DNA from: a virus
Lineage: Duplodnaviria > Caudoviricetes
IMG/VR virus record: IMGVR_UViG_3300034053_000043
Span: 1 to 56,633 of that record
DNA length: 56,633 nucleotides
Direction: 5' to 3' (one strand)
Part shown: in pieces, positions 4,448-49,205 of the stretch
How positions within the stretch are numbered: position 1 is the stretch's first letter
How the letters are laid out: each line of letters opens with the position of its first letter
Made by a program: the position numbers and the translations under genes
Notes under the pieces: generated by a model
Seen by the model: the letters and a program-made list of their open reading frames with translations, nothing else
The model's database searches: none
Told to the model about the DNA's origin: nothing

Positions 4448-4752
4448 GCCAGCGCCCTTTCAATCCACGCGACAGCCTCGCCGCTCTTGATGTGCTTACC
4501 TGTCACGCGCAGCACGCGCCAGCCATCGAGCGTGAGCGCCGCGTACTTCTCGCAGTCCTGCTCGAATCCTTTGCCGCGCGTGTGCCGCCCTCCAGACCAC
4601 GTGCCGCCCTCTACCTCGACGGCTATGCGCTTCTCGGCGTGCGCAAAGTCGACCCGCCAGCGCCGGCCCTTGATCGGCGTGAACTCGCGCACGAAGCCGT
4701 CGAGCTTCAGCGCGCGGATCTGCTGCATCAGGGCTTCTTCTAGTGCGCTCAT
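4444..4752 (-). CDS. DUF559/Vsr-like PD-(D/E)XK endonuclease
   Basis: WRVDFA...IAVEVEGG...GRH...D.EKY....L.GWRVLR. Confidence 0.8.
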   Translation of the reverse strand: MSALEEALMQQIRALKLDGFVREFTPIKGRRWRVDFAHAEKRIAVEVEGGTWSGGRHTRGKGFEQDCEKYAALTLDGWRVLRVTGKHIKSGEAVAWIERALA

Positions 4753-4762
4753 CGGCTACGGC

Positions 4763-4799
4763 TGCGACTTTTCATGGTTGCGGTAATGACGTGTTGTGC
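4763..4799 (+). mobile_element. attI-like cassette entry site A
   Basis: TGCGACTTTTCATGGTTGCGGTAATGACGT-GTTGTGC; 32/33 identical to the reverse complement of 26519-26551; TAAN-N5-GTT geometry. Confidence 0.55.
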
Positions 4800-5326
4800 C
4801 GCTCGGGGTCCGCCGCCATGAATGCGGCGCGCTGCATCACGTCGATGGCGGCCACCGCGGCGGCGGCTCGCTCGGGCACGTCGTGCCAGCTCCAGCGCGT
4901 AAGCGGCGGCTCAGGCCCGCGCAGCGCCACGGCCGTGCGGTTTAGCAGGCCCGCCATGCGCTCGCGCAACGCCTCGTTCTCGTCCAGGTCGCGGCGCGCC
5001 TCCTCCAGCGCGTCTGCCGCCTCAAGCAGCAACCTGTCTTTGCTGGGCACCACGCGCACGCACGCCACTACATAGCCGGCAAACTGGCTGTCCGGGAAGC
5101 GTCGCTTGTGGTCTGCCAGCCATTCCCGTGCCTCGCGCTCAGGGCTCATCGTTTCCGGCCACGAGTAGGCCATGCAATAGCTGCCGTCTTCGGGGCTCTG
5201 CACGCGCCATTCGTCATACCCACTGCAGGCGCCGCGAAGTCGCTCCACCAGCGGCACAACTGGTCGCTCAACCGGAGTGCCGCCGGCATCCGGCTTCTGT
5301 TCGCGTTGCTTGGTCATGGGCGTCAC
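4772..5326 (-). CDS. hypothetical protein in a single attC cassette
   Basis: 184 aa; N-terminus encoded by the attC; coiled-coil C-terminus. Confidence 0.7.
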   Translation of the reverse strand: MTPMTKQREQKPDAGGTPVERPVVPLVERLRGACSGYDEWRVQSPEDGSYCMAYSWPETMSPEREAREWLADHKRRFPDSQFAGYVVACVRVVPSKDRLLLEAADALEEARRDLDENEALRERMAGLLNRTAVALRGPEPPLTRWSWHDVPERAAAAVAAIDVMQRAAFMAADPERHNTSLPQP

Positions 5327-5347
5327 CCGGTTACCTTTGCGTTCCTC
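5254..5347 (+). mobile_element. attC-like site
   Basis: GCACAAC-N5-GCTCAACC...GGTTACC-N5-GTTCCTC; GCGGCACAAC is the perfect complement of GTTGTGCCGC at 4793. Confidence 0.75.
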
Positions 5348-5535
5348 TCATCCGGCACAGCCCCGCCGAGATACCGACTCGGCATCCGCTCGCACAGACT
5401 GCGCGCCACTTCGCGCGGCGGCGCCGGGTAGGGCCAGCCGGCAACGATCAGCGACAGCCGCAGGTAGTCCCGGCACGATCCCGGCATCTCGATTCCTTCG
5501 TGGCCACCTGGGAGCTTCCAGCGGTCGCCGGTCAT
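5323..5535 (-). CDS. hypothetical protein
   Basis: Translationally coupled within the operon. Confidence 0.55.
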   Translation of the reverse strand: MTGDRWKLPGGHEGIEMPGSCRDYLRLSLIVAGWPYPAPPREVARSLCERMPSRYLGGAVPDERNAKVTG

Positions 5536-5798
5536 TTGCCATCCACCCAGCTTGGCGGCTTCGGACTATCGGCAGATACGGTTAGCACTTCATAGCTAGA
5601 GCCGGCCTGAGACACGATGCGCTGCTGTGTCGACCACTTCAGCGTCTGATCTGGCGTCATCTCGTCGGGGCAATGCTCAAGCATCAGCTCGTCGATCCGC
5701 GCCTGTAGGCGCTCAAGTTCATCGGCGATCTGGGTCTTCAGCCGAGAGCCAAACACCTCATCGCCTGGGATGCGCAGCCGCGCAACGATGTCGGTCAT
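5532..5798 (-). CDS. hypothetical protein
   Basis: MTDIVARLR...IDELMLEHCPDEMT; ATGA coupling. Confidence 0.6.
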   Translation of the reverse strand: MTDIVARLRIPGDEVFGSRLKTQIADELERLQARIDELMLEHCPDEMTPDQTLKWSTQQRIVSQAGSSYEVLTVSADSPKPPSWVDGK

Positions 5799-8112: not shown

Positions 8113-8398
8113 GCCAAGCGTCCTTCGTACTCCACTGCTGTCTTCTTTGTTCGCCACCGTCAACACCCTCTCATCTAGCGCTCTGCCTTAATCCCTGACC
8201 TTTGGTGAGCGGACCCAGCCGTGCCTAGCTGAGCCTTCACTACTGACCTTCGGAGCCACGTAGACCCGCCAGCCGTTCGACGCTGGGGCGCTAGCTTCGC
8301 CACCCCGATCCCCTGCTTCCGCGTCTTGCCACCAGTAGGGGTGTCGTGTCCATGGTGCTGGTGCCTGCTTCGCGTCCACCATGGTCATCGAGATCGCG

Positions 8399-21941: not shown

Positions 21942-22162
21942 CGCGACCGGACTATTGCCCTATTGGCGGGCAACCCTGCCAGTCGATGTGTGTTGAGAAA
22001 TGCAGCGTGCTCAACAAGACCTGCGACACATGCAACGCCAGTCATGCAAACACGGTGCCGCGCATGGTGCGCTGCGGTACATGCGTGGCGACGGAAGCTG
22101 GCAACACAAAGTGGCGACCAAATGGCGAGCCTAACGCTGCCGGTAAGGCGCCGGCCCGCTAG
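21938..22162 (+). CDS. Cys-rich hypothetical protein
   Basis: ATGA coupling; stop codon lies inside the attC. Confidence 0.55.
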   Translation: MTRPDYCPIGGQPCQSMCVEKCSVLNKTCDTCNASHANTVPRMVRCGTCVATEAGNTKWRPNGEPNAAGKAPAR

Positions 22163-22192
22163 GGCCGGTCGCCCTTGACCGGCGTGTTAGGC
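22129..22192 (-). mobile_element. attC site
   Basis: - strand: GCCTAAC-N5-GGTCAAGG...CCTTACC-N6-GTTAGGC; canonical spacing with the extra C in L''. Confidence 0.9.
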
Positions 22193-22217
22193 CCCACCGT
22201 GAACGAAAGCACTGACG

Positions 22218-22439
22218 ATGGCACGCAAGAGATTCAGGTGGACGCGCAAAGCCTACAAGCAGGCCGACTGGATGGCGCGCTTCTACGGCCGGCATATCTA
22301 CGAGCTGCCGGAGCGACCACCACCGCTGCTGCAACGGTACTTTGCCCTGTGGGAGCGCCACAGACAGAACGATGACCCACTGCTGGTGCCGCTGCGCCAG
22401 CGGCCTGGATACGCTGACGATGACGGGATACCGTTTTAG
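22218..22439 (+). CDS. hypothetical protein
   Basis: ORF ending DDDGIPF. Confidence 0.6.
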   Translation: MARKRFRWTRKAYKQADWMARFYGRHIYELPERPPPLLQRYFALWERHRQNDDPLLVPLRQRPGYADDDGIPF

Positions 22440-22447
22440 GAGGAACG

Positions 22448-22651
22448 ATGGCTGACGGACACATCACCGTGACGATTGACAACCCTGACGTGGTGGCAGA
22501 CGCGGTGCGTTTCCGCTGGCTGTGCCTGCACCCAGACTGGCACTTTATCGAGCGCCTGTGCCGCGAGTTCGCGGCCGACAGCGGCGCCGCATTTTTGAAC
22601 GAGATGCGCCGCGTGATTGACGCGCGCCGCTCGGTGGAACTGGACCCCTAG
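22448..22651 (+). CDS. hypothetical protein
   Basis: GGAGG RBS; DAVRFRWL. Confidence 0.65.
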   Translation: MADGHITVTIDNPDVVADAVRFRWLCLHPDWHFIERLCREFAADSGAAFLNEMRRVIDARRSVELDP

Positions 22652-22659
22652 TAAGCGAC

Positions 22660-22974
22660 ATGACCAAGCATACCGAGAACAGCGAGCGCGGCCAGCCGTT
22701 GGGGCTCCCGTTGAACGACGGGTTAGGCCCGCTGCCTCCAGGCAATGAGCCGTGGTGCTTTGCGTACACCAGCGCCGACATGAAGGCCTATGCGCTGGCC
22801 GAAGTGCGCAAAGCCGTGGACGCAGAGCGCGAGCGGTGCGCCAAACTGTGCGAGCCAACAAGGCCGCGTCCTTGCAACTGCGAGCGCTGCGACTGCGGGA
22901 ACGCGACCGACGCCCGCATGGTTGCGGAGTGGGACGAAGCGGCTGCGATGGCGCGGCGCATTCGTGGTGCCTAA
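22660..22974 (+). CDS. hypothetical cassette protein
   Basis: N-terminus encoded by the attC half-site; TAA stop inside GCCTAAC. Confidence 0.65.
   Translation: MTKHTENSERGQPLGLPLNDGLGPLPPGNEPWCFAYTSADMKAYALAEVRKAVDAERERCAKLCEPTRPRPCNCERCDCGNATDARMVAEWDEAAAMARRIRGA
22696..22728 (-). mobile_element. attC half-site (R'' and L'' only)
   Basis: + strand CGTTGAAC-N5-GTTAGGC; partner arm absent. Confidence 0.6.
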
Positions 22975-23037
22975 CGACCTAGCTAAGCCGCCTGGCGCGG
23001 CTTTATGCGACAGGTCGGCTTGAGCGACGAGTTGGCC
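22969..23037 (-). mobile_element. attC site
   Basis: + strand GCCTAAC-N6-GCTAAGC...GCTTGAGC-N5-GTTGGCC. Confidence 0.9.
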
Positions 23038-23054
23038 GGCACCGGAGATAGACG

Positions 23055-23807
23055 ATGGATTATGTGATTTCAGCGAGCTACGGAAACGACAGCATGGCGA
23101 TGATGCAGTGGGCGCACGAACACGGCCTGCAAGGCGTGACGGTTGCCTACTGCGACACCGGCTGGGCCGCGCCTGGCTGGGAACTGCGCGTAGCAGAAGG
23201 CGAGGCGCTGGCGCTGCGCCTGGGGTTCGCAACGGTGCAACTGCAAAGCATGGGCATGGAAGCGCTGGTGCGGATGAAAAAAGGCTTCCCCGGCAACGGG
23301 CAGCAGTTCTGCACCGCATGGCTGAAAGGCTTGCCTTTCCTTCAATGGATCGACGAGGCCGACCCGGAGCGCACGGCGGTTGTGATGGTGGGCAAGCGCC
23401 GCGACGAGAGCGAGAACCGCAAGGACACGCCGGAATGGATTGAGGCGAGCGAATACCATGGCGAGCGCCGGCTGTGGCACCCGCTCTACCTGCACTCGGA
23501 CGGCGACCGCGATGCACTGCTGACGCGCGCAGGCGTGAAGAAGCTACCGCACCGGAGCGACGAATGCAGCCCATGCGTGAATGCGAACCGCGACGATCTG
23601 CGGCGGTTGAGCGGCCGGCAGATTGGCAAGACGGCCGCACTCGAAGCCGATGTAGGGCAGCCGATGTTCCGCGCCGCGAAGCACGGCGGGGCGGTAGGAA
23701 TTGAGCAGGCCATCCAGTGGGCGAAATACTCACCTGGGCAATACAAGCCCGGCATGGATGACCTTTTTGTGGTCGGCTGCGGCTCGCCCTTCGGGTGCGG
23801 AACGTGA
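23055..23807 (+). CDS. PAPS reductase-family (PP-loop) protein
   Basis: SASYGNDS PP-loop, CDTGW, FCTAWLK, GKRRDES..R, C.PC, GCG. Confidence 0.8.
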   Translation: MDYVISASYGNDSMAMMQWAHEHGLQGVTVAYCDTGWAAPGWELRVAEGEALALRLGFATVQLQSMGMEALVRMKKGFPGNGQQFCTAWLKGLPFLQWIDEADPERTAVVMVGKRRDESENRKDTPEWIEASEYHGERRLWHPLYLHSDGDRDALLTRAGVKKLPHRSDECSPCVNANRDDLRRLSGRQIGKTAALEADVGQPMFRAAKHGGAVGIEQAIQWAKYSPGQYKPGMDDLFVVGCGSPFGCGT

Positions 23808-23808
23808 C

Positions 23809-23866
23809 GGCCAACGTTTGACATAACCGGCAGCCGGAGGCTGTCCGGTTGATGGAATGGTTATGT
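23809..23866 (-). mobile_element. attC site
   Basis: + strand GGCCAAC-N6-CATAACC...GGTTGATG-N5-GTTATGT. Confidence 0.9.
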
Positions 23867-23885
23867 GTCTGGTGGAGGAAACAAG

Positions 23886-24077
23886 ATGCCAATTGAATGC
23901 GAGAAACTGAGGAACGCGCCATACGCCAGAGAGAAGTGCAAGCACTGCGGCGAGCCGTTTCCTGAATTCATGCGCGGCGAGGTTCAAAGTGGGTGGCGTC
24001 GCTTATTTGGGCTGGCTTACTGCGCGGTGATCTGTCACAAGTGCAAGCGGCTCACTGGGTGGGAGAAACCACGATGA
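23886..24077 (+). CDS. small zinc-finger protein
   Basis: GGAGG RBS; two CxxC. Confidence 0.65.
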   Translation: MPIECEKLRNAPYAREKCKHCGEPFPEFMRGEVQSGWRRLFGLAYCAVICHKCKRLTGWEKPR

Positions 24078-24301
24078 AGAAGGCGAGCCATTGCGACGAG
24101 TGCAAGCATGCAAGCGTGAAGTGGTTTTTGTATCGCGGGCCGCCTGCATTCGATGTGCTCACATGCGCGAAGAAACACAAGCCACGTTTCTACCAGCCGA
24201 AAAGCAACCCGCACGATTGCAACTGGGGATGGAAGCGAGTGTGCAACGAGTTCGAGACACATAACGTCCGAGGTAAGCCGCGCCGCCAGGCGTCGGCTTG
24301 A
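24074..24301 (+). CDS. Cys-rich hypothetical protein
   Basis: ATGA coupling; reads into the attC. Confidence 0.6.
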   Translation: MKKASHCDECKHASVKWFLYRGPPAFDVLTCAKKHKPRFYQPKSNPHDCNWGWKRVCNEFETHNVRGKPRRQASA

Positions 24302-24315
24302 GCGAAGTGTTAGGC
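24259..24315 (-). mobile_element. attC site
   Basis: + strand ACATAAC-N6-GGTAAGC...GCTTGAGC-N5-GTTAGGC. Confidence 0.9.
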
Positions 24316-24375
24316 AGCATTAGCGCCGGAGCGCGCCATTGTTTGCAGTGTTACAACTTTCTTTTGCTAGACCCC

Positions 24376-24404
24376 TTGCGGATGTTTGATTGTCGTACTA
24401 CAGT
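24376..24404 (+). promoter_or_regulatory. cassette-internal sigma70-like promoter
   Basis: TTGCGG-17 bp-TACAGT in an AT-rich gap. Confidence 0.5.
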
Positions 24405-24437
24405 ACACCCATCGACACACCAACCCGGAGACAGCAA

Positions 24438-24617
24438 ATGAACGGCTTTCAAGTTAACCAAATCGTCGCAGGCAAGTTCGGCAAGTTCGTGATCCTGGCC
24501 TTTCGCACCATCGGCGGCGAACAGTACGCGCAGGTGAAGGAGTACGACGAAGTGACTGGCAAAACTCGGCGCGGCGAAATGTCCCTGCCGCTGACCGCGC
24601 TAAAGGCGGTGGCGTGA
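24438..24617 (+). CDS. small beta-rich hypothetical protein
   Basis: GGAG RBS. Confidence 0.65.
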   Translation: MNGFQVNQIVAGKFGKFVILAFRTIGGEQYAQVKEYDEVTGKTRRGEMSLPLTALKAVA

Positions 24618-24781
24618 TGCGAGGCGGCCCAGGGCGAGGCCAGGGGCGAAAGCCCCTGCCGGCAGAAGAGGCCACCAAGCCGCGCAGCGTGCGATTGAAC
24701 GATGCGCGCTGGGAAAAGTTGAAGCGCCTTGGGGCTGAGTGGCTGGCGCGACAAATTGACAAAGCAAAGGAGCCGCAGTGA
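24617..24781 (+). CDS. 54-aa RHH-like DNA-binding protein (below the ORF track cutoff)
   Basis: MRGGPGRGQGRKP...RSVRLNDARWEKLKRLGAEWLARQID; TGATG/GTGA coupling. Confidence 0.7.
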   Translation: MRGGPGRGQGRKPLPAEEATKPRSVRLNDARWEKLKRLGAEWLARQIDKAKEPQ

Positions 24782-25302
24782 CTGAACCTGTTGCATGGAT
24801 GGTCGTCAACAACGACGGACGAGACGCTTTTGTCACAGCCGACCCGCTGCTGGCAAATGTCAATCTAGGCCAGCGTGCGCTGCCACTTTACGCGGCGCCA
24901 GTGATGGACACCTGCGCGAACGTGCGCAGCAGCAGGCCAACCAGTGGCGGCGGCTTTGTGGAACGCGAGCTTGCAGTGGCGCGTGGCCTGGCAGCGTGCC
25001 GTGGTGACGATGCGCGACTTGACGAAGCCGACACCGAACTAGCCGACCTTCGGCAAGCGTGCCGCGAGGGCTGGCGCTACGCGGCCGAACTGGAAGAGGA
25101 ACGCAAGCGCCTGCAAGCCGAGCTTGACCGCATGAAGCGATACGCGGCCGTGGCGTTGGACGTTTGCACCACGTTCTCAGAAGAAATGGGGGATGGCGGG
25201 CATTGGCTGCCGCGCTGGAAGGTGCTTGCGGTATTCGCCACGCAAGAGGCGGCGACGGCACTGGCCGACACGCTGCGCCGGCCGGCTGTTGATGCTGCAT
25301 AA
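24778..25302 (+). CDS. hypothetical protein
   Basis: EPVAW...PLYAAP motif; TAA stop inside GCATAAC. Confidence 0.7.
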   Translation: MTEPVAWMVVNNDGRDAFVTADPLLANVNLGQRALPLYAAPVMDTCANVRSSRPTSGGGFVERELAVARGLAACRGDDARLDEADTELADLRQACREGWRYAAELEEERKRLQAELDRMKRYAAVALDVCTTFSEEMGDGGHWLPRWKVLAVFATQEAATALADTLRRPAVDAA

Positions 25303-25389
25303 CGTTCAAGGTAACAGGCCGCCGCGTGACCAAGGTTGAGTAAACGAGACGAGCTTATTTCGGCGGTCCTGTTGACCGCAATGTTAGCC
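25297..25389 (-). mobile_element. attC site
   Basis: + strand GCATAAC-N6-GGTAACA...TGTTGACC-N5-GTTAGCC. Confidence 0.88.
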
Positions 25390-25413
25390 GGCTGGTGGCT
25401 ACGAAGAAAAGGA

Positions 25414-26052
25414 ATGACGATGGCGGAGAAAATCACTATTGGAAATGCCGAGTTGTGGCACGGAGACTGCCGCGAAGTGCTGCCGGTGTTGCCAGCGTGC
25501 GACCTGATTTTGACCGACCCACCGTATGGAATTGGCGCAGACAAGGTGAAGGCGCATAGCTCGATACGGGACAACGAAGCATGGGAGAAAGCCGATTGGG
25601 ACAACGCGACGCCGCCGGCTTGGGTGTTCGGCTTGATGCGAGAGAAGGCCGGCACGCTCATGGTTTGGGGCGGCAACTACTTTGCCGACATGCTGCCGGC
25701 CACAAGCGGGTGGCTGTGCTGGCGGAAGCCCGAAGCAGAAACAGGGTTTTCACTCGCCGACATTGAACTGTGCTGGACGAGCCTGAGCTTTGCCGCCCGA
25801 ACCAAGACGCTGCCGCGCCGAGACGGAAACGAACACCCGACGCAAAAGCCGGTGGCGCTGATTGAATGGGCGATGACGTTCGCGCCGAAGGCGGAAACGG
25901 TTTGCGACCCGTATATGGGGAGCGGGACGACCGGCGTAGCGTGCGCCAACATGGGTAAACAGTTTGTCGGGATTGAACGCGAACGCCGGTACTTTGATAT
26001 TGCCTGCGAGCGGATTGCCCGCGCACAGGCACAAGAGCGGCTGTTCGCATGA
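25414..26052 (+). CDS. DNA adenine/N4-C methyltransferase (beta class)
   Basis: TDPPYG, HPTQKPV, DPYMGSGTT. Confidence 0.92.
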   Translation: MTMAEKITIGNAELWHGDCREVLPVLPACDLILTDPPYGIGADKVKAHSSIRDNEAWEKADWDNATPPAWVFGLMREKAGTLMVWGGNYFADMLPATSGWLCWRKPEAETGFSLADIELCWTSLSFAARTKTLPRRDGNEHPTQKPVALIEWAMTFAPKAETVCDPYMGSGTTGVACANMGKQFVGIERERRYFDIACERIARAQAQERLFA

Positions 26053-26056
26053 AGAC

Positions 26057-26169
26057 GGCTAACGCAAAGTTGACCGGGAGCCAACGCGATGACCAATGAA
26101 CACCCCGAAGCGCGCGACGGCGCGCAGACCGCCGAGCCGTTGGCTCTCCGGTCGAACGACCAGTTAGGC
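26057..26169 (-). mobile_element. attC site containing the start codon of the next gene
   Basis: + strand GGCTAAC-N5-GTTGACC...GGTCGAAC-N5-GTTAGGC; ATG at 26089 is in the variable region. Confidence 0.85.
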
Positions 26170-26520
26170 CCGCTGGTGGATCGGCTGCGGGGGTGCGTGA
26201 CGATGAAGCACGAGACGGCCTTGATGCGCGATGCTGCCGATGCGCTTGCCGACCTGTGGCTTGAGCACCGCGCGCTGCTGGAGAAGCACAACAACCTTCA
26301 CATGAATGCATATCGGCTGCGCCGCGAGAACGAGACACTCCGACGCGGGCCTTGGATCGGCAGGTGCCAAGCATGCGGACACGAGCACGAAGTGCCGAAG
26401 GAAGAGGCGCGCTTACTGAGTGATGCGCTGCAGGCGCTGTGCCACTACCGAGCGCAGACGCGCCCGATTGCAGACTGCGACGCGGTGATTGATCGGCTGA
26501 GTGCCGTGCTTAGGGCCTAA
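26089..26520 (+). CDS. hypothetical cassette protein
   Basis: TAA stop inside GCCTAAC; N-terminus encoded by the attC. Confidence 0.7.
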   Translation: MTNEHPEARDGAQTAEPLALRSNDQLGPLVDRLRGCVTMKHETALMRDAADALADLWLEHRALLEKHNNLHMNAYRLRRENETLRRGPWIGRCQACGHEHEVPKEEARLLSDALQALCHYRAQTRPIADCDAVIDRLSAVLRA

Positions 26521-26551
26521 CACGTCGTTACCGCAACCATGAAAAGTCGCA
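26515..26551 (-). mobile_element. attI-like cassette entry site B
   Basis: - strand TGCGACTTTTCATGGTTGCGGTAACGACGT-GTTAGGC; no hairpin; near-identical to 4763-4795. Confidence 0.55.
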
Positions 26552-26901
26552 AGCGCAACCGTAGCCGCTGGGCACACGTCAACAACCCGGACGGGCTGCG
26601 TCGCCGCAGGGCCAAGGCCGACGCGCGCCGCGAGGCCATTGCCGCCACCCTGCCGCCTGCCTACGCACCACCCGTGCCACTGACCCACTGGCAGCGCATC
26701 GTGATCGACCTGTACGTGCCGACTGGCGGCCGATGCGACCAGCACGCGACGATGATCGACGACGAGCGGGTGGGCCTGCTGTCGGCGACGGAGATTGCGA
26801 CCAAGGTGCGCGCCCTGATCCGCAAGCGGCCCAGCGTGACGGCGCAGGCAGAGAGTCGGCGCGACGAGTGGCGCGAGGCGGCGCGCAGCCAGCTTGCATG
26901 A
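26539..26901 (+). CDS. hypothetical protein
   Basis: ATGA-coupled to the xis-like gene. Confidence 0.6.
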   Translation: MKSRKRNRSRWAHVNNPDGLRRRRAKADARREAIAATLPPAYAPPVPLTHWQRIVIDLYVPTGGRCDQHATMIDDERVGLLSATEIATKVRALIRKRPSVTAQAESRRDEWREAARSQLA

Positions 26902-27095
26902 TTGGAACATTGATGGAAGACCTAGCAGACATCCCCACAATCGCACGCATCCTGGGCGCGTCAGTCCGCACCGTGCGGGACCGCTACGTGCACGCGCCTG
27001 GCTTCCCGCCGCCTGCGATTGCGCCGAGTTCGCGCAAGCGCAAGTGGAAGATCAGTGAGGTGATGGGGTGGGCGAAGCCGAAGGAGAAGCCGTGA
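26898..27095 (+). CDS. AlpA-like excisionase / recombination directionality factor
   Basis: IARILGASVRTVRD...PGFPPP...KWKISEVMGW. Confidence 0.75.
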   Translation: MIGTLMEDLADIPTIARILGASVRTVRDRYVHAPGFPPPAIAPSSRKRKWKISEVMGWAKPKEKP

Positions 27096-27466
27096 GCGAC
27101 TACATCAAACAGCCTGACGTGCCGGGCCACCCAGAGCCGCACACCATGACGTGGAGCGAGATGGAGCTCGGCGCGCTGCATCTGTACGGGCGCGAGTGCT
27201 ATGAGGCCGGCAAGCAGGAGCAGCTCCGCATTGAGCAATCCGCCAGCCACCGGAACTGGATGCTGCTGGCTTTCCGTGCGCTGAACGACACCGATGGCGT
27301 GCTGCAAACCATCGTGCCAGAAAGTAGCTCCGAAGAACGAAAGCTCGCTGAACTGCGAGATCGCGTGCAGTCGCTTGCGATTCAGGTGCCGACGTTGCTC
27401 GGCATGACATACGCTGGTGCTGATAGCGCAGCGGCGCAGAGGGTCAATTTGAGGCGGGGGAGGTAA
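27092..27466 (+). CDS. hypothetical protein
   Basis: GTGA coupling, AAGGAG RBS. Confidence 0.65.
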   Translation: MSDYIKQPDVPGHPEPHTMTWSEMELGALHLYGRECYEAGKQEQLRIEQSASHRNWMLLAFRALNDTDGVLQTIVPESSSEERKLAELRDRVQSLAIQVPTLLGMTYAGADSAAAQRVNLRRGR

Positions 27467-27489
27467 AGAAACGAACGCGGCTGTTCCTC

Positions 27490-27514
27490 GGTCGGCTGCA
27501 CCGTAGGGTTAGAA
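27490..27514 (-). mobile_element. attC half-site
   Basis: + strand GCTGCACC-N5-GTTAGAA; GTTAGAACGCGC pairs 11/12 with GCGCGCTCTAAC at 27735. Confidence 0.55.
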
Positions 27515-27539
27515 CGCGCCATTGCTACGGAGAAAGACA

Positions 27540-27782
27540 ATGCACATTGAATGCTGTCCGCATTGCGGCGGGAGACTGAACGAGCCGGAAATCAAGCGCC
27601 CGGAAGGCTGCGTTTGTGACCACATGGAATGGGGCGATCCGTACAACCTGCCGCCCGTTTGCGACAAGTTCGAGGGCGACAAGATCGGCGGTAACTGCAC
27701 CCGCTGCGAGCACGATTACGAGTGCCACGCGGAAGCGCGCTCTAACGCCAAAGGCGAGGCACGGCAAGAACCGAAGGAGTGA
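27540..27782 (+). CDS. Cys-rich hypothetical protein
   Basis: GGAG RBS; several CxxC/CxH. Confidence 0.65.
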   Translation: MHIECCPHCGGRLNEPEIKRPEGCVCDHMEWGDPYNLPPVCDKFEGDKIGGNCTRCEHDYECHAEARSNAKGEARQEPKE

Positions 27783-27829
27783 ACATGGAACAGAAGCCAG
27801 AGGCCGTTGCCTCGACCGCCCAGTTGGGC
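27740..27829 (-). mobile_element. attC site
   Basis: + strand CTCTAAC-N6-GGCGAGG...CCTCGACC-N5-GTTGGGC. Confidence 0.8.
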
Positions 27830-27848
27830 CTGTAGCCGGAGCGTGACC

Positions 27849-28109
27849 ATGGCCGAATACCTACTGATTGCCGCCGCCCTGGTAGCCGCCATTGCTGCGG
27901 CTGTGCGCTGGTGGTTCTGGCGCGACTACAAAGCCAAACACGCCGACGCGCTGCTGTTCATGACGCACACACCGCACGCCTTCCAGTCGGGCAAGCTGCA
28001 CGACGGCAAGGTCATCACGCGGCTGGTGCAGGTGGCGCCGACCGCACTGGCGAACGGCGGCCGGGCGCCATGCTGGGAGGTGTATGGAAGGCCCAACGCC
28101 ACCCGATAA
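27849..28109 (+). CDS. membrane-anchored hypothetical protein
   Basis: GGAG RBS; N-terminal TM segment. Confidence 0.65.
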   Translation: MAEYLLIAAALVAAIAAAVRWWFWRDYKAKHADALLFMTHTPHAFQSGKLHDGKVITRLVQVAPTALANGGRAPCWEVYGRPNATR

Positions 28110-28145
28110 GCCGCCCGAAGGGTCGGCTTGATTGATCTGTTCGGC
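28091..28145 (-). mobile_element. attC site
   Basis: + strand GCCCAAC-N7-GATAAGC...GCTTGATT-N5-GTTCGGC. Confidence 0.8.
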
Positions 28146-28159
28146 CGGCGCCTCAACCA

Positions 28160-28387
28160 ATGGACAAAATGAGCAAGCAATTCAAACTGCCGAGCGGCAA
28201 ATTCACGGCGAGCACACGGCGATACCTGAGCGAGTGGAGGAAGCTCACGGATGCCGTTGAGCAGAGGTTAGGCGCTCGCGTGTATGCCTTCGATCCTGGC
28301 GTGGCCGTGAGCCTGCCTGATGGGCGCGGTGGGTGCTCTCTGCCGCTGTGGGTGGCGCAGAAGATCGCCGATCTGCCTACCGCCTAG
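28160..28387 (+). CDS. hypothetical protein
   Basis: Last early-operon ORF; overlaps the int 3' end. Confidence 0.6.
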   Translation: MDKMSKQFKLPSGKFTASTRRYLSEWRKLTDAVEQRLGARVYAFDPGVAVSLPDGRGGCSLPLWVAQKIADLPTA

Positions 28388-29390
28388 CCGCGAACTGCGC
28401 CGCAATGTCGGCGGCTGTGTCTCGGTAGTAGACCGCCAAAAGCAAGCTCAGATCCTTGTGGCCGCTGACGCGCGCGAGCTGCATCGGGTTCATGCGCCGA
28501 GACATGCTTGTCAGCGCAGTGCCGCGCGAGTCGTGATAGTGCGCGTCCGTCACCAGCGCCTGCTTCGACATCTTGCGGAACAGCGCATCTAGGCTTGACG
28601 GCGACAGGTGGATCAGCTTGTCATCAGTCGCGGCCACAAGCACGCCCAGCACCCGAGCGCCGGCCGGAGTCAGCGGCACCTGGCGCTTTCCGACAACCTC
28701 CAGCGTCTTGTGCTGCGTCAGCGTCACCACGCGCCGCTGCAAATCGACAGACTCGCGCGTCAGGCTCAGCACTTCGCCGGCCCTCATGGCGGTCCTCAGC
28801 GACACGAGAAAAGCCCACGCAACGGCCTGTAGGCCAGTCCTGGGTGGCTTGCCGCTGACGAACCCGCAGCGCCGCATGATGCGTCGAATCTCGCGCCAGC
28901 CGTAGAGCCGATCCCTGGGCGCGTTGTCGCCCGGCATCCTCAGAGCCCGCCACGGGCTTGGATCAGGCGTCCACCCCCATTCCTTGGCCGCAATCGTCCA
29001 GACGTTGCGCAGCGTGCCAATCTCACGCTGCACAGACCCCGGCGTGACGCGCTTGAGTCTTGCATCCCGCCATACGGCAAGATCCGCCGTCGTCACTTCG
29101 CTGATGATTTTGCCGGCAAGCGCGGGGTTGTCTCGCGCGAATGCTGCCAGGCGCAGACCCTCGGGCCTGGCACCGCGCTTTGTCGAGCTGACCTCGGCCA
29201 CGTATTTGTCGATGGCGTCGGCGACAGTCTTGCTCGGCCATCGACTCAGGGCGCCGGACAGGATCGCGGCCTCTTCCTGGGCCGCCCACTGGGTGGCGGC
29301 AGACTTGGTTGGCAGCGTGGCTGACTTGCGGACGCCTTTGCGCTCGATCTGGACTTGCCAGCCGTTGGGTGTCTTGCGGACGTGGGCCAC
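28377..29390 (-). CDS. int: phage tyrosine integrase (Rci/HP1-like)
   Basis: TAMRAGE, HYHDSR, SGHKD, YY catalytic residues; GTG start. Confidence 0.9.
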   Translation of the reverse strand: MAHVRKTPNGWQVQIERKGVRKSATLPTKSAATQWAAQEEAAILSGALSRWPSKTVADAIDKYVAEVSSTKRGARPEGLRLAAFARDNPALAGKIISEVTTADLAVWRDARLKRVTPGSVQREIGTLRNVWTIAAKEWGWTPDPSPWRALRMPGDNAPRDRLYGWREIRRIMRRCGFVSGKPPRTGLQAVAWAFLVSLRTAMRAGEVLSLTRESVDLQRRVVTLTQHKTLEVVGKRQVPLTPAGARVLGVLVAATDDKLIHLSPSSLDALFRKMSKQALVTDAHYHDSRGTALTSMSRRMNPMQLARVSGHKDLSLLLAVYYRDTAADIAAQFAARR

Positions 29391-29583
29391 TTCGGGATGC
29401 TCTAGGGATCTGGGCGGGATGCCGTCCCGATCATGCGTGACTTCGTGCGACGTTCTACATAGGTAAAGTGCGCTTGTGCGCGCTTTTGTTGGGGCGTATG
29501 CGTCACTGGTACTGGTGCACCCGGCCTGCACCGTATGTATTGTCAGCATTGAGGTTTTCGGCGCACTTCGGGATTTTCTAGGG
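29388..29583. promoter_or_regulatory. attP-like site
   Basis: Direct repeats CACTTCGGGATnnTCTAGGG (29388, 29564) flank GGTGCA-N7-TGCACC (29514-29532). Confidence 0.65.
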
Positions 29584-29699
29584 GCCGCGCCTACAATTAG
29601 CCCGAGGGTCAAGCGCAGCGCGCAGGGTTGGGGCTACCTGGCCGCCCTCGCCTACAGGCAGCTTACTGCATCCTGTGCCGGCAACACATACAATCGAGG

Positions 29700-31717: not shown

Positions 31718-32890
31718 TCACGGCGCTGGCGCCCTGTTGCGTGACGTGCTGGTGCCCCAGAAATAACCAGCAGCCCCGCCGACAACCAACGACACGATGG
31801 CCGTTGCGATGGCCGCTCGCACGTCGCTTGGCCAGGACTCGCCCCACAGCCCGACGACGCTGCCGACAACCATGTAGACCAGCGGCAGCAGCGCCAGCGT
31901 GACCCAGAATGACGGACTGTGCAGCATGTCGCCGGCAGCGGCAGCCGCTCGATCAGCCTTGCGCGCTCCGTCAATTCCGCCGCCTCCGACCTCCGTCAAC
32001 TGGAACCAGATCGCGTCGACTGCCTTGGTAGCAGTCGCCACCGCAGCCGGATCGGTTTGCAGGATCTGCACCGCCTCTTGTTCGGTCTTTGCGCCCAGCG
32101 AATCCTTGACGGCGCCGACAGCAAGCTCCACGGCCGCGAGATTGCGCTCGCTGACCTGAGATCCGCTGCCGAACAGCTTTCCCAGTTTGGGGATGGCTTC
32201 GATGATGGCTGGCAGTGCAGCGAGAAGGAACGGGGCCATGCGTGACCTCCATGTGTTTGTGGTTGGCTCAGGATCGGCCGCCACGGGGCCAGGATCGGCG
32301 ATAGCGGGCTTTTCCGGCTCGGGCAATGGTGTAGGCGCAGGCGCGACAGCAAGCGCCTGCTTTGCACGCTCCCAGCGAAATTGCCGGTCCCCGATCCCGT
32401 TGAGCCCGCCGTTGATGCGCTTGGTCAGTCCGACGAAATCGCCAGCGTCTGCAAGCCGATTGCACCCGTGCGCGGCCCACCAGTCGCATGCCGACCAAGC
32501 GGCCCACTTCGGCGACTCAAGCGCCTCGGGCGTGGCCTCGAAGTCAGGCGCCCCAAGCTGGGCCATGCGCTCTGCTGTGCGCCTGTAGTTGTCGCGCCCG
32601 GTAATCTGGATCAGGCCCCGGCCTTTGAAGCGCTCTCCGTCGCCTGGCTGGGTGTTGCCCAGGTCGGCCCGGCCCTCATACCGCGCCTGAGCCGGCGTCG
32701 GCCCCCACAGCTCGCGCGTGTGCCTGAAGCTGCCGCTCTCGTGCCCAATCTGGGCCAGGAGTGCAGCCAGCCGCTCGGGCGTGTCGATGCCGTAGTGACC
32801 GCAGGCAACGCTCAGGTGCTCGGCGTAGGTGTCGGCCAGATCCTGGCTACAGCCTACGGCCGCGCGCAGCAGGGCCGGTGTGATGGTCAC
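31718..32890 (-). CDS. GH19 endolysin fused to a membrane (holin-like) domain
   Basis: LAQIGHESG, FKGRGLIQITGR.NY, TKRINGG; Pro-rich linker; C-terminal TM helices. Confidence 0.88.
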   Translation of the reverse strand: MTITPALLRAAVGCSQDLADTYAEHLSVACGHYGIDTPERLAALLAQIGHESGSFRHTRELWGPTPAQARYEGRADLGNTQPGDGERFKGRGLIQITGRDNYRRTAERMAQLGAPDFEATPEALESPKWAAWSACDWWAAHGCNRLADAGDFVGLTKRINGGLNGIGDRQFRWERAKQALAVAPAPTPLPEPEKPAIADPGPVAADPEPTTNTWRSRMAPFLLAALPAIIEAIPKLGKLFGSGSQVSERNLAAVELAVGAVKDSLGAKTEQEAVQILQTDPAAVATATKAVDAIWFQLTEVGGGGIDGARKADRAAAAAGDMLHSPSFWVTLALLPLVYMVVGSVVGLWGESWPSDVRAAIATAIVSLVVGGAAGYFWGTSTSRNRAPAP

Positions 32891-34457: not shown

Positions 34458-35798
34458 TTACCACTGAGTCACGCGCACATGGCCTCGGCCGCCTGCGCCG
34501 CCCGCTGCGTTGGTTGAGTTTCTTGACCCGCCGCCGCCACCGGAGCCAACGCCACCCGCCGTGCCGTTAGCACCAGTGCCAGCTGGCGTCGTAGTGGCGC
34601 CACCAGTTCCAACCAGTGGATTGATGCCGCCAGACACGCCGGCCAACGTGGTCGAGCCTCCGCCGTTACCGCCATGGCCGCCGAGGTAGGACACGCCTCC
34701 GAGCCCGCCAACGCCAGGATTCGATGTACCAAGCCCGCCACCCGCCCCGCCGCCTGCGCCGCCGTAGATCGCGTCAGCGCCAGCGCCGCCTGTCTTGCCG
34801 TCCGTTGTCGTGCTGGTGCCGCCACCGCCGCCGCCCGCCCCGCCGCCGATGCTGCGGGTGTCGTTGTGAGTCGCTGCGGTTCCGTTGGTGTCGGCAGCCG
34901 CTCCGGCCGGGCCGGCAACGCCGGACGAGTTGCTGCTGCTCTTGCCGGCGGTGCCGCCAGCGCCTCCCGTGGACGCAGCGCTGGCGCCGCCTGTGCTTCC
35001 TTGGCCGTAGCCACCGCCACCGCCGCCGCCGCCTGGGCCGCTGTTGTTGGCCTTTGCCCCACCGCCACCGCCTCCAGCCGCCGCGACGAGTGATGCCGCG
35101 CCGAAAAGGGAGTTACCGCCTACGCCACCGGCAGAGCCAGCGCCGCCAGCAGCGCCACCAGATCCAACAGTGACGGTTTCGGTCGCGCTCAGTGACGAGG
35201 CGAGAAAAAAGCTGCGCGCGTAGCTGCCGCCACCGCCGCCGCCGCCGCCTCCCATGGTCAACGCGCCGCCGCCGCCGCCGCCAGCGCCCAGGCACTCCAC
35301 CATCACAAACTGGCCCTGACCTTTTGTCCAGGTGCCAGAGCTGGTGAAGTCGGTAACGGTCGATGCACCTTGACTCAGCGGCGCAGTCAGCAGCACGTCC
35401 CACGACGCGATGGTGCCGCTGCCGCCGACGTGGCTTACCGTCACATCAAGCGCGCCGGTGCCTGTGGTGTATGCGCTGACGATGCCAAACATCCAATTCG
35501 CGCGGTTTGCCGTGCTGCTGATCACCACGCCCTGGCCTGACGCGAAGCCCAACCCAGTCTGCGTGGTCAACGACTTGGCGCCGACGCCAATAGTTAGGCT
35601 CGTGCTGCTTGTGCCGCGTGCCAATGCGTCGTTGGTCTGAGCGGCTACAAAGGCGGCAGCCGCGTTAAGCTCCGCTGCAACGCTGTTGGCTTCAGCCCCA
35701 AACGTGGGCAGCGCCGCCAAAAACGCATCGACGCGCGACTCGAACGTTGTGCTGTCCGCGCGGCTCGGCGGTTCCGGCAAGTCGGTAATGGTAGTCAT
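34458..35798 (-). CDS. glycine-rich tail fibre / receptor-binding protein
   Basis: FTSSGTWTK...GAGGGGG repeats; position in the tail module. Confidence 0.75.
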   Translation of the reverse strand: MTTITDLPEPPSRADSTTFESRVDAFLAALPTFGAEANSVAAELNAAAAFVAAQTNDALARGTSSTSLTIGVGAKSLTTQTGLGFASGQGVVISSTANRANWMFGIVSAYTTGTGALDVTVSHVGGSGTIASWDVLLTAPLSQGASTVTDFTSSGTWTKGQGQFVMVECLGAGGGGGGALTMGGGGGGGGGSYARSFFLASSLSATETVTVGSGGAAGGAGSAGGVGGNSLFGAASLVAAAGGGGGGAKANNSGPGGGGGGGGYGQGSTGGASAASTGGAGGTAGKSSSNSSGVAGPAGAAADTNGTAATHNDTRSIGGGAGGGGGGTSTTTDGKTGGAGADAIYGGAGGGAGGGLGTSNPGVGGLGGVSYLGGHGGNGGGSTTLAGVSGGINPLVGTGGATTTPAGTGANGTAGGVGSGGGGGSRNSTNAAGGAGGRGHVRVTQW

Positions 35799-49013: not shown

Positions 49014-49205
49014 TCAGTCCTCGATACGCCATCCGCCTCGTGCGTAGTTCTCCACCTCGTCGAGGTGAACGTCAGCGGTGTACGGGGGCGGGTTGGTTTC
49101 AGCGGAGCGCACCATTCGCACGGTGCGCGGCTTGTCTTGCGCTTCAGGCTGGGCGACGGCCGAAGCCGCCGCCTTAGCCGCGCGCTGTTCGCGCGTGTAG
49201 GCCAT
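49014..49205 (-). CDS. small hypothetical protein
   Basis: TAATG coupling to the capsid gene; ADVHLDEVENY. Confidence 0.6.
   Translation of the reverse strand: MAYTREQRAAKAAASAVAQPEAQDKPRTVRMVRSAETNPPPYTADVHLDEVENYARGGWRIED

What the first reader, a model, noticed from the sequence alone, without database searches (positions are those of the whole stretch)
22129..28145. Phage early operon built as an integron-type attC cassette array with no integron integrase
Seen: 8 complete attC-shaped sites here (22129, 22969, 23809, 24259, 25297, 26057, 27740, 28091; 55-113 bp), a ninth at 5254, and 2 half-sites. Each has RYYYAAC/GTTRRRY-type ends, 7/8-nt L boxes with one extra base, and spacers of 5 plus 5-7 nt. 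The ends pair across the genes rather than within each site: GTTGGCCG/CGGCCAAC (PAPS gene), GTTATGTGTCT/AGACACATAAC 11/11, GTTAGGCAGCAT/ATGCTGCATAAC 11/12, GTTAGCCG/CGGCTAAC (MTase), GTTAGGCCC/GGGCCTAAC, GTTAGAACGCGC/GCGCGCTCTAAC 11/12, GTTGGGCCT/AGGCCCAAC. Established: this is the footprint left when circular cassettes integrate at G|TT; IntI acts on folded ssDNA and is often SOS-induced. Inference: the phage gains, loses and reorders phage-type accessory genes using a host IntI in trans, plausibly during SOS induction.
Basis: partly seen in the sequence, partly recalled or inferred. Interest (0 to 1): 0.93.

Follow-up and report, generated by a model that had tools for sequence, protein, structure and literature searches.

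The report
Integron cassette array inside a phage
A temperate phage carries a genuine integron-style array of swappable gene cassettes in its early operon but no integron integrase, and its genes sit the opposite way round to those of ordinary bacterial integrons.

Summary
The 8 sites at 22129-28145 and a ninth at 5254-5347(-) are real attC sites. A covariance model trained only on 76 attC sites lying beside integron-integrase genes on other viral contigs recovers all nine (37.5-62 bits; best non-site hit 14.8). Their L-box helix covaries, and their ends pair across the genes. The window is a complete tailed temperate phage with no IntI, so the region is a CALIN.

Two corrections apply. First, the + strand, which carries the genes, is the attC bottom strand. 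The crossover is therefore AA|C in the left box, and each gene travels with the attC upstream of it. Alignment to the aadA1 attC, the position of intI in relatives, and cassette-exact indels all agree on this. Second, IntI need not come from the host. Of the 21 related viral records I searched, 11 encode an IntI above the curated cut-off, and 10 of those are at least 92% complete.

Phage CALINs are already published (Qi 2023). The reversed gene orientation and the phage-borne integron group appear to be new.

The parts
22129..22192 (+). attC site s1, bottom strand on +. This is the end of the array farthest from where attI/intI lies in relatives.
   Evidence: R2 55.8 bits; sequence.
22969..23037 (+). 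attC site s2. It belongs to the PAPS-reductase cassette 22975-23814.
   Evidence: R2 62 bits. Homology with L050 and L051 starts inside this site and stops at or just past the gene's stop codon.
23055..23807 (+). Cassette gene: PAPS-reductase-like protein.
   Evidence: PF01507 25.4 bits; phrog_424 85.7 bits. The protein is 86% identical to a cassette gene of the IntI-bearing phage G004/L051.
23809..23866 (+). attC site s3. It begins cassette 23815-24264, which holds two small ORFs (23886-24077 and 24074-24301).
   Evidence: R2 48.1 bits. This cassette occurs in metagenome contigs of runs X1, X3 and X4, with unlike sequence before 23813 and after 24267.
24259..24315 (+). attC site s4, the site closest to the aadA1 attC. 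It begins cassette 24265-25302, which holds three ORFs.
   Evidence: R2 56.9 bits. Best alignment score to the aadA1 bottom strand: 33.5, against 15.0 for its reverse complement.
25297..25389 (+). attC site s5. It begins the methyltransferase cassette 25303-26062.
   Evidence: R2 51.1 bits.
25420..26052 (+). Cassette gene: N6/N4 DNA methyltransferase.
   Evidence: PF01555 71.6 bits. Homologues lie between attC hits in L082 and L100.
26057..26169 (+). attC site s6. ORF 26089-26520 starts inside its loop. The cassette spans 26063-26520.
   Evidence: R2 51.9 bits; sequence.
26513..26521 (+). Half-site consisting of an R box only. It closes cassette 26063-26520 and is complementary 9/9 to the right end of s6.
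   Evidence: Sequence.
27508..27519 (+). Half-site consisting of a right box only. It is complementary 11/12 to the left end of s7.
   Evidence: Sequence.
27740..27830 (+). attC site s7.
   Evidence: R2 41.2 bits.
28091..28145 (+). attC site s8, the last site. It lies about 230 bp from the 3' end of the phage integrase gene.
   Evidence: R2 37.5 bits.
22668..22728 (+). Degenerate attC. The right arm is kept and lies inside the 5' part of ORF 22660-22974. The left arm is lost.
   Evidence: R1 16.7 bits and R2 16.4 bits.
5254..5347 (-). Ninth, solitary attC, bottom strand on -. The gene sense there is also -. An ORF starts inside its loop.
   Evidence: R1 34.9 bits (this site was not in R1's training set) and R2 37.5 bits. 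Its cassette ends at an R-box-only half-site at 4793-4801.
28377..29612 (-). Phage tyrosine integrase, not an IntI. It is convergent with the array. It is context, not part of the array.
   Evidence: PF00589 42.9 bits; phrog_1 136 bits. No TIGR02249 match. The best NCBIfam hit is 18 bits.

Best explanation
Positions 22129-28145 are a genuine integron cassette array without an integrase (a CALIN). It has 8 intact attC sites plus decayed half-sites. It sits at the downstream end of the rightward early operon of a complete temperate tailed phage and ends about 230 bp from the phage's own, non-IntI integrase gene.

The array was built by IntI-type recombination of folded single-stranded attC sites. 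[quoted passage not shown] That triplet lies in the left box of each site on the + strand, because the + strand is the attC bottom strand.

Each mobile unit is therefore an attC followed by its gene or genes, running up to the RYYYAA of the next site. The genes lie on the bottom strand, the reverse of ordinary integron cassettes. As a result the whole array is read in one direction from the phage early promoters.

In relatives that keep an integron integrase, the order is early genes, then cassettes, then attI, then intI, all on one strand. This phage has lost, or never had, intI. Further gain, loss or reordering needs an IntI supplied in trans by a co-resident phage or prophage integron or by a host integron.

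Shown: the nature of the sites, their orientation, the cassette footprint, the absence of IntI in the window, and cassette-exact indels in related arrays. Inferred: present-day activity in this phage, the donor of IntI, and a counter-defence role for the cargo.
For: Nature of the sites:
- R2, trained only on attC sites next to IntI genes on other viral contigs, finds 9 of 9 window sites at 37.5-62 bits. The half-site comes next at 16.4 bits, and the best hit outside any site is 14.8 bits.
- R2 also finds the aadA1 attC of plasmid R100 at 70 bits, on the strand opposite aadA1.
- The L-box helix covaries. In the window set, 7 of 9 pairs show compensatory changes. In the 76 IntI-adjacent sites, 8 of 9 pairs do, with 92.8% of all cells paired. 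None of 500 shuffles reached those values.

Orientation:
- All 8 window sites align better in + orientation to the aadA1 bottom strand. The unpaired T and G lie on the arm opposite the AAC. That is the published criterion for the bottom strand (passages of PMC5027507).
- On 27 IntI-bearing viral loci, 107 of 107 R1 hits (E<=0.001) lie on the intI-sense strand, and all but 3 lie upstream of intI. R100 has the same geometry.
- In L051 the last cassette abuts a short spacer just upstream of the intI start codon.

Mobility:
- L077 and L078 are 98-99% identical and differ by three single-cassette indels. Each breakpoint lies at RYYYAA|CG in the left box.
- L072 and L082 share a 301-bp cassette at 100% identity, bounded in the same way.
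- The window's cassette 23815-24264 occurs in contigs of 3 studies. These contigs run on into unlike sequence before 23813 and after 24267.
- The window and phage G004 share only the PAPS cassette.

Footprint: cross-gene complementary runs average 5.66, against 1.47 within a site.

Gene strand:
- Of 126 intervals between sites, 82 favour an ORF on the bottom strand, 13 favour the top strand and 31 are ambiguous. The window gives 5, 0 and 2.
- Pfam domains on the bottom strand include PAPS_reduct, N6_N4_Mtase, RNA_ligase and MT-A70.

Phage identity: terminase, portal, major head protein, endolysin and integrase are present, and CheckV rates the record 100% complete.

No IntI in the window.
Against: - No close relative of this phage itself was found, so no gain or loss in this particular array was seen directly. 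Its integrase has no close relative in viral contigs, and its cassette proteins have no homologues in the 45 helicase-related loci.
- The metagenome support comes from short assembly contigs matched at 88% likeness or more. Such contigs often break at repeats.
- Several sites have decayed (22668-22728, 26513-26521, 27508-27519). That fits an array drifting without an integrase.
- The host is unknown, so no trans donor of IntI is shown.
- The ORF-strand call is a crude composition score, and 31 of 126 intervals were ambiguous.
- R2's training sites were picked with R1, which had seen the window sites. R2 is therefore independent in sequence but not in how its sites were selected.
Confidence: 0.85

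Rival explanations
1. Frozen relic. The array was inherited from an ancestor that carried intI, as G004 does. It is now inert and is kept only because its genes are useful and its hairpins are harmless.
For: The window has no IntI. Three half-sites have decayed. The closest PAPS homologue, in L050 (89% identity), has only a partial upstream site and no downstream site. The cassette content has no homologues in the 45 helicase-related loci, so recent exchange cannot be shown for this array.
Against: Eight sites keep the full geometry and score as well as sites lying next to live intI genes. R-box pairing across cassettes is still 8 of 9 or better for most pairs. Cassette 23815-24264 is found at about 100% identity with other flanks in three studies.
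Confidence: 0.3
2. A piece of a host chromosomal integron picked up by imprecise prophage excision or by a chimeric assembly, as described for the Vibrio anguillarum phages in Qi 2023.
For: Published precedent (PMC9892861, sections 9 part 1 and 13 read). L095, an IntI-bearing 'viral' contig, has mostly ordinary gene orientation and looks like a bacterial array.
Against: The array is internal, with phage genes on both sides. Its genes run with the early operon and are phage-type. The same layout recurs in 8 of 45 helicase-related phage loci. It also occurs in a complete phage genome with terminal repeats that carries intI.
Confidence: 0.05
3. The phage's own tyrosine integrase (28377-29612, - strand) recombines these sites.
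For: It lies directly beside the last site, and it is a tyrosine recombinase.
Against: It has no match to the integron-integrase model. Its best NCBIfam hit is only 18 bits, to a Xer model. In G004 an ordinary phage integrase and a separate IntI stand side by side, so the two jobs are done by two enzymes.
Confidence: 0.03
4. Intergenic hairpin repeats unrelated to integrons, such as terminators or REP-like elements.
For: The sites are GC-rich hairpins lying between genes.
Against: They share the geometry of the aadA1 attC and are close to it in sequence. A model built from sites next to IntI finds them. The terminator scan gave nothing above shuffles. The ends pair across the genes.
Confidence: 0.01

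Closest known systems
Clusters of attC sites lacking an integrase (CALINs) in phage genomes (Qi et al. 2023, Front Microbiol, PMC9892861)
   Same: attC arrays in phage genomes without intI. DNA methyltransferase cassettes are frequent. Phage attC sites were shown to recombine with IntI1.
   Different: The CALINs shown in that paper's main figures have few attC sites (for example, 3 in TJE1). Two were described as having the typical gene orientation. Here there are 8-9 sites, every gene lies on the attC bottom strand, and the array is part of the early operon. I could not see their Supplementary Table S1, which lists all 17 CALIN phages.
attC of the aadA1 cassette, class 1 integron In2 of plasmid R100
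   Same: Same architecture: RYYYAAC box, 5-6 nt spacer, L box, unpaired T, 6 nt, unpaired G, 3 nt, 5 nt spacer, GTT box. The 3' arm of s4 is almost identical to it.
   Different: aadA1 lies on the attC top strand, with its attC downstream of the gene. The window's genes lie on the bottom strand, with their attC upstream.
Complete integrons on other viral contigs found here (G004/L051, L076-L102)
   Same: Same attC type, same reversed gene orientation, shared cassette families (PAPS reductase, methyltransferases), and the same place at the end of an early operon next to a phage integrase.
   Different: They carry intI. All 11 records that had a hit scored above the TIGR02249 cut-off, out of 21 related records searched. 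They also have an attI-like junction. The window has neither. The backbone genes of the window and G004 are unrelated.
Sedentary chromosomal integrons of bacteria
   Same: Long arrays of small cassettes, mostly of unknown function, with attC sites of one type.
   Different: Those are chromosomal, have intI, and are read from Pc away from intI. Here the carrier is a phage, and the genes read towards the place where intI sits in relatives.

Membership tests
integron attC site (59-base element) | Conserved AAC and GTT triplets in inverse boxes at the two ends | tested here: met
   AAC and GTT are invariant in 8 of 8 window sites and in the aadA1 site (A1). The full 7-mer consensus is met in only 3 of 8 left boxes and 4 of 8 right boxes (my reading).
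integron attC site (59-base element) | Imperfect L-box helix with extrahelical bases on the arm opposite the AAC of the bottom strand, plus an unpaired central spacer | tested here: met
   Unpaired T and G lie on the 3' arm of the + strand with the same spacing as in the aadA1 bottom strand. Seven of 9 L pairs show compensatory changes. The criterion comes from passages of PMC5027507.
integron attC site (59-base element) | Match to an attC covariance model | tested here: met
   R2, built from 76 IntI-adjacent sites, finds 9 of 9 sites at 37.5-62 bits. IntegronFinder's own model was not available. Rfam has no hit here.
integron attC site (59-base element) | Recombined by an integron integrase at AA|C (G|TT) | not testable with these tools
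   Indirect only: cassette-exact indels at this point in L077/L078 and L072/L082, and loose ends at 23813 and 24267 in metagenome contigs.
integrated cassette array | The right box of one site is complementary to the left box of the next site rather than to its own left box | tested here: met
   Mean run of 5.66 across genes, against 1.47 within a site and 1.17 at random. Runs of 4 or more occur in 84%, 16% and 10% respectively.
complete integron | intI (TIGR02249) and attI next to the array | tested here: not met
   No candidate in the whole 56.6-kb record. The neighbouring integrase is not an IntI.
CALIN | Two or more attC sites close together with no intI nearby | tested here: met
   Eight sites lie within 6 kb and the record has no intI. 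This definition is recalled from the IntegronFinder papers and from Qi 2023.
canonical cassette layout | The gene lies on the attC top strand, with its attC downstream of it | tested here: not met
   The PAPS reductase and methyltransferase genes lie on the strand that matches the bottom-strand models. Of the window's 7 intervals, 5 favour the bottom strand, 0 the top, and 2 are ambiguous.

The most novel reading that the evidence does not exclude
There is a dedicated phage integron system. A group of temperate phages carries intI as the last gene of the early operon. These phages share a cassette pool of their own in which the genes are reversed relative to attC.

This layout has three consequences:
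- Cassettes, attI and intI form one co-directional unit driven by phage early transcription.
- The recombining bottom strand is the non-template strand of that unit.
- New cassettes enter at the promoter-distal end.

The pool holds methyltransferases, a PAPS-reductase-like protein, an RNA ligase and many small unknown proteins. It would serve as a bank of counter-defence genes, mirroring the defence cassettes of bacterial integrons. Phages without intI, like this one, would draw on it through an IntI supplied by a co-resident phage.
Probability: 0.45. Interest if true: 0.85.

Novelty: new variant of a known kind. Interest (0 to 1): 0.72.

Why it matters
Integrons are regarded as bacterial devices whose cassettes are read from a promoter beside the integrase. 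This phage shows the same recombination sites used the other way round. The array is read from phage early promoters towards the integrase position, and each gene is carried behind its own site.

The finding also led to at least 11 viral records, 10 of them at least 92% complete, that encode their own integron integrase next to such arrays. Cassette-exact differences between near-identical phages were seen among these.

If the cargo is counter-defence, as the methyltransferases suggest, phages would have a modular gene bank that mirrors the defence cassettes recently reported in bacterial integrons. That would make the exchange of counter-defence genes between unrelated phages directly testable.

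Tried and rejected
- A strict regular expression for RYYYAAC...GTTRRRY found only 1 of the 8 sites, so it is too strict.
- Rfam has no attC family. The only hit in the window was Betaproteobacteria-1.
- A MAFFT alignment of the 8 window sites alone (A2) misaligned the L box. I used A1 for the model instead.
- Megablast of 12000-36000 against GenBank phages gave one irrelevant 67-bp hit.
- The window's integrase has no close relative in viral contigs.
- The helicase query in genome contigs gave only 3 MAG contigs. The host therefore stays unknown, and I could not check it for intI.
- The window's cassette proteins have no homologues in the 45 helicase-related loci.
- The 75-aa protein of cassette 23815-24264 gave only four relatives at about 70% identity. 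Their arrays were used only for statistics.
- The joints reported by read laying have short sides (20-38 letters, one of 68) at 88% likeness. I took them as cross-matches between similar attC sites, not as excision products.
- The habitats of runs X1-X4 rest on small word shares (0.05-0.06), so I draw no habitat conclusion from them.
- The promoter and terminator scan gave nothing above shuffles.
- The LexA-box scan upstream of intI found a box in 2 of 28 phage loci. It also found none at intI1 of R100, which was meant as the positive control. No conclusion on SOS control can be drawn.
- Virus Rctr41k (KX853513) has an IntI-like gene at 48% identity but no attC of this type.
- Literature searches for phage integrons returned only Qi 2023 as relevant. 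For the other papers I saw only the search listings. Supplements were closed, so the full list of 17 CALIN phages in Qi 2023 was not seen.

Full report
WHAT THE WINDOW IS. The window is one whole IMG/VR virus record of 56,633 bp. It is classed linear, and CheckV rates it 100% complete. GC content is 63%. It is a real tailed temperate phage. PHROG matches include:
- large terminase, 54054-55301
- portal, 52660-54057
- head morphogenesis protein, 51588-52676
- major head protein, 49205-50350
- a tail protein, 34458-35798
- endolysin, 31718-32890
- integrase, 28377-29612

All of these lie on the - strand. The + strand from about 13 kb to 28.4 kb carries early genes: an HNH endonuclease, a DNA methyltransferase, an SNF2-type helicase, an ERF recombinase and a Gp157 homologue. 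The region of the finding follows these directly on the same strand. It ends about 230 bp from the 3' end of the integrase gene.

THE OBSERVATION. I aligned them with the attC of the aadA1 cassette of plasmid R100, taken from the annotated record. From that alignment I built covariance model R1. Scanning the window with filters off gave three results:
- The ninth site, 5254-5347(-), was not in the training set and scored 34.9 bits.
- The half-site 22668-22728 scored 16.7 bits.
- Nothing else scored above 15.9 bits, and the opposite strand of the same sites scored 12.4 bits or less.

The named structure is supported by covariation. In the L-box helix, 7 of 9 pairs change on both sides and 97.5% of cells pair. 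None of 500 shuffles reached the observed values, and sliding the partner columns drops pairing to 21-47%.

For a test free of window sequence, I collected 76 sites from 19 other loci whose arrays lie beside integron-integrase genes. I built model R2 from them and scanned the window with filters off:
- All eight sites scored 37.5-62 bits, and the ninth scored 37.5.
- The next hits were 16.4 bits (the half-site) and 14.8 bits.

R2 also finds the aadA1 attC at 70 bits. One caveat applies: the R2 training sites were chosen with R1.

The strict 7-mer consensus is met in only 3 of 8 left boxes and 4 of 8 right boxes. Only AAC and GTT are invariant, which is usual for attC sites (passages of PMC5027507).

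THE FOOTPRINT. It is correct and general. I measured 124 consecutive site pairs across all the arrays collected. The right box of a site is complementary to the left box of the next site for a mean of 5.66 contiguous bases beyond the core. The figure is 1.47 for a site's own two boxes (n=162) and 1.17 for random pairs (n=4796). Runs of 4 or more occur in 84%, 16% and 10% respectively.

THE STRAND IS THE OTHER ONE. Three independent lines show that the + strand, which carries the genes, is the attC bottom strand.

1. Alignment to aadA1. All 8 sites align better in + orientation to the aadA1 bottom strand. The two unpaired bases (T, then 6 nt, then G, then 3 nt, a 5-nt spacer and GTT) lie on the arm opposite the AAC. 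That is the published mark of the bottom strand.

2. Position relative to intI. On 27 viral loci with an IntI gene, 107 of 107 R1 hits lie on the intI-sense strand. All but three (in L080) lie upstream of the intI start. Class 1 integron In2 has exactly this geometry: intI1 on +, the aadA1 attC hit on +, and the array upstream.

3. Breakpoints. L077 and L078 are 98-99% identical, and they differ by three indels of exactly one cassette each. L072 and L082 share one cassette of 301 bp at 100% identity with unlike neighbours. In every case identity starts or stops at the AAC(G) of the left box, not at the right box.

The crossover is therefore AA|C in the left box on the + strand, which is G|TT on the - strand. 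Each gene travels with the attC upstream of it. The window's cassettes are then:
- 22135-22974
- 22975-23814 (PAPS-reductase-like)
- 23815-24264
- 24265-25302
- 25303-26062 (methyltransferase)
- 26063-20 -> 26063-26520
- a stretch with decayed sites
- 27746-28096
- a last cassette starting at 28097

This reading explains why ORFs can start inside a site: 26089 in s6, about 5317 in the ninth site, and 9111 in L051. It also explains why three ORFs end on the TAA of the next left box, at 22974, 25302 and 26520.

GENES ARE REVERSED RELATIVE TO ORDINARY CASSETTES. aadA1 lies on the strand opposite the model hit. In the window, the PAPS-reductase and methyltransferase genes lie on the same strand as the hits. 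I scored 126 intervals between sites with a crude composition measure. Of these, 82 favour an ORF on the bottom strand, 13 favour the top strand and 31 are ambiguous. The window gives 5, 0 and 2. One contig, L095, behaves like an ordinary bacterial array, with 6 top-strand and 3 bottom-strand calls.

I ran Pfam on 10 of the 23 large bottom-strand cassette ORFs. It found an RNA ligase, an MT-A70 methyltransferase and a weak DHH phosphoesterase match. Seven ORFs had no match.

RELATIVES.
- Helicase query: this found 45 viral loci. Eight of them carry arrays downstream of the early genes (L002, L003, L007, L017-L019, L025, L045). The other 37 have none, and many of those are short fragments.
- PAPS-reductase query: this found 20 loci. 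Four carry arrays. In L052 and L053 the same gene, at 75-79% identity, has no flanking sites. The gene therefore exists both as a cassette and as an ordinary phage gene.
- G004, the record of L051: this is a 37,084-bp genome with direct terminal repeats, rated 100% complete. It has a tape measure protein, major head protein, terminase and tail genes. It encodes an integron integrase scoring 473 bits against a cut-off of 265. The gene lies immediately after six attC sites and an attI-like junction and is co-directional with the cassette genes. A separate ordinary phage integrase follows it.
- That IntI has 27 further relatives among viral contigs. I checked ten of their records, and all ten have an IntI above the cut-off. 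Nine of the ten are at least 92% complete, one has terminal repeats, and two are classed as proviruses. Nine other related records had none, and most of those are fragments.
- The window and G004 share nothing but the PAPS cassette.
- The 50,697 GenBank phage records hold no IntI closer than 55% identity. The hits are the phages already discussed by Qi 2023, plus Virus Rctr41k.

THE WINDOW'S OWN CASSETTES ELSEWHERE. Four public runs from three studies hold parts of the region. When laid on it, contigs cover 23813-24267 at or near 100% identity: X1 records 4-6, X4 record 30 with no differences, and X3 record 21. Contigs run on into unlike sequence before 23813 and after 24267. That is within 2-3 invariant bases of the predicted cuts. 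These are short assembly contigs, so I count this as supporting evidence, not proof.

MECHANISM. Shown: the nature of the sites, their orientation, the integration footprint, the absence of IntI in the window, and cassette-exact gain or loss in related phage arrays.

Inferred:
- The array was assembled by IntI acting on folded bottom strands.
- Any present activity needs IntI in trans.
- The donor may be a co-resident phage integron as well as a host one.
- Reversed genes may have been favoured because they let early genes, cassettes, attI and intI form one co-directional unit.
- The cargo may serve counter-defence.

WHAT IS KNOWN. Qi et al. 2023 screened 10,705 phage genomes and reported 3 complete integrons, one In0 element and 17 CALINs. 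Methyltransferase cassettes were frequent, and phage attC sites recombined with IntI1 (PMC9892861; outline, section 9 part 1 and section 13 read). The bare idea of attC arrays in phages is therefore published.

My four literature searches found no description of either of the following:
- arrays in which the genes lie on the attC bottom strand;
- a group of phages encoding their own IntI at the end of the early operon.

Supplements were closed, so I could not see the full list of CALIN phages in Qi 2023.

VERDICT. I rate it a new variant of a known kind, with interest 0.72.

Noticed in passing
window 8264-8386 (-): A full-length match to the Rfam family Betaproteobacteria-1 sRNA (85.4 bits, gathering score 49.4) lies inside the phage. 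It is the only hint to the host group.
   Followed up: no
window 22660-22974 (+), 26089-26520 (+), about 5317-4796 (-): Three ORFs start inside the loop of an attC or its remnant and share similar N-termini encoded by the right arm of the site. Part of the protein is therefore dictated by the recombination site. Metagenome contigs match only this part and then diverge at the right box (X1 record 1).
   Followed up: partly
window 26519-26560 (+) and 4801-4760 (-): The sequence that follows the R-box-only half-sites at the ends of two cassettes is nearly the same for about 40 nt, including the start of a short ORF. It may be a repeated secondary insertion site or a duplicated junction.
   Followed up: no
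window 22972-22974, 25300-25302, 26518-26520; 24299-24301; 28107-28109: The attC bottom strand supplies stop codons in several frames. Three ORFs end on the TAA of the left box, one on the TGA of the right L arm and one on the TAA of the left L arm.
   Followed up: partly
L080 9610-10651: Three attC hits lie downstream of intI on the same strand, in addition to the site upstream. This may be a second array.
   Followed up: no
L095 (whole locus): This IntI-bearing 'viral' contig has 13 attC hits upstream of intI, with mostly ordinary (top-strand) gene orientation. It looks like a bacterial chromosomal integron rather than one of the phage type.
   Followed up: partly
L052 8001-8747, L053 1458-2204: The PAPS-reductase gene, at 75-79% identity to the window's, has no attC on either side. 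L050 (89% identity) keeps only part of an upstream site. These may be useful for asking how cassettes arise or decay.
   Followed up: partly
L105 (KX853513, Virus Rctr41k) 4680-5678: A GenBank phage gene annotated xerD is 48% identical to the phage IntI over 93% of its length, but no attC of this type lies nearby.
   Followed up: partly
window 24316-24437: This is a 120-bp stretch without an ORF inside cassette 24265-25302, upstream of three small ORFs. It is the only sizeable non-coding gap in the array. The consensus promoter scan found nothing there.
   Followed up: partly
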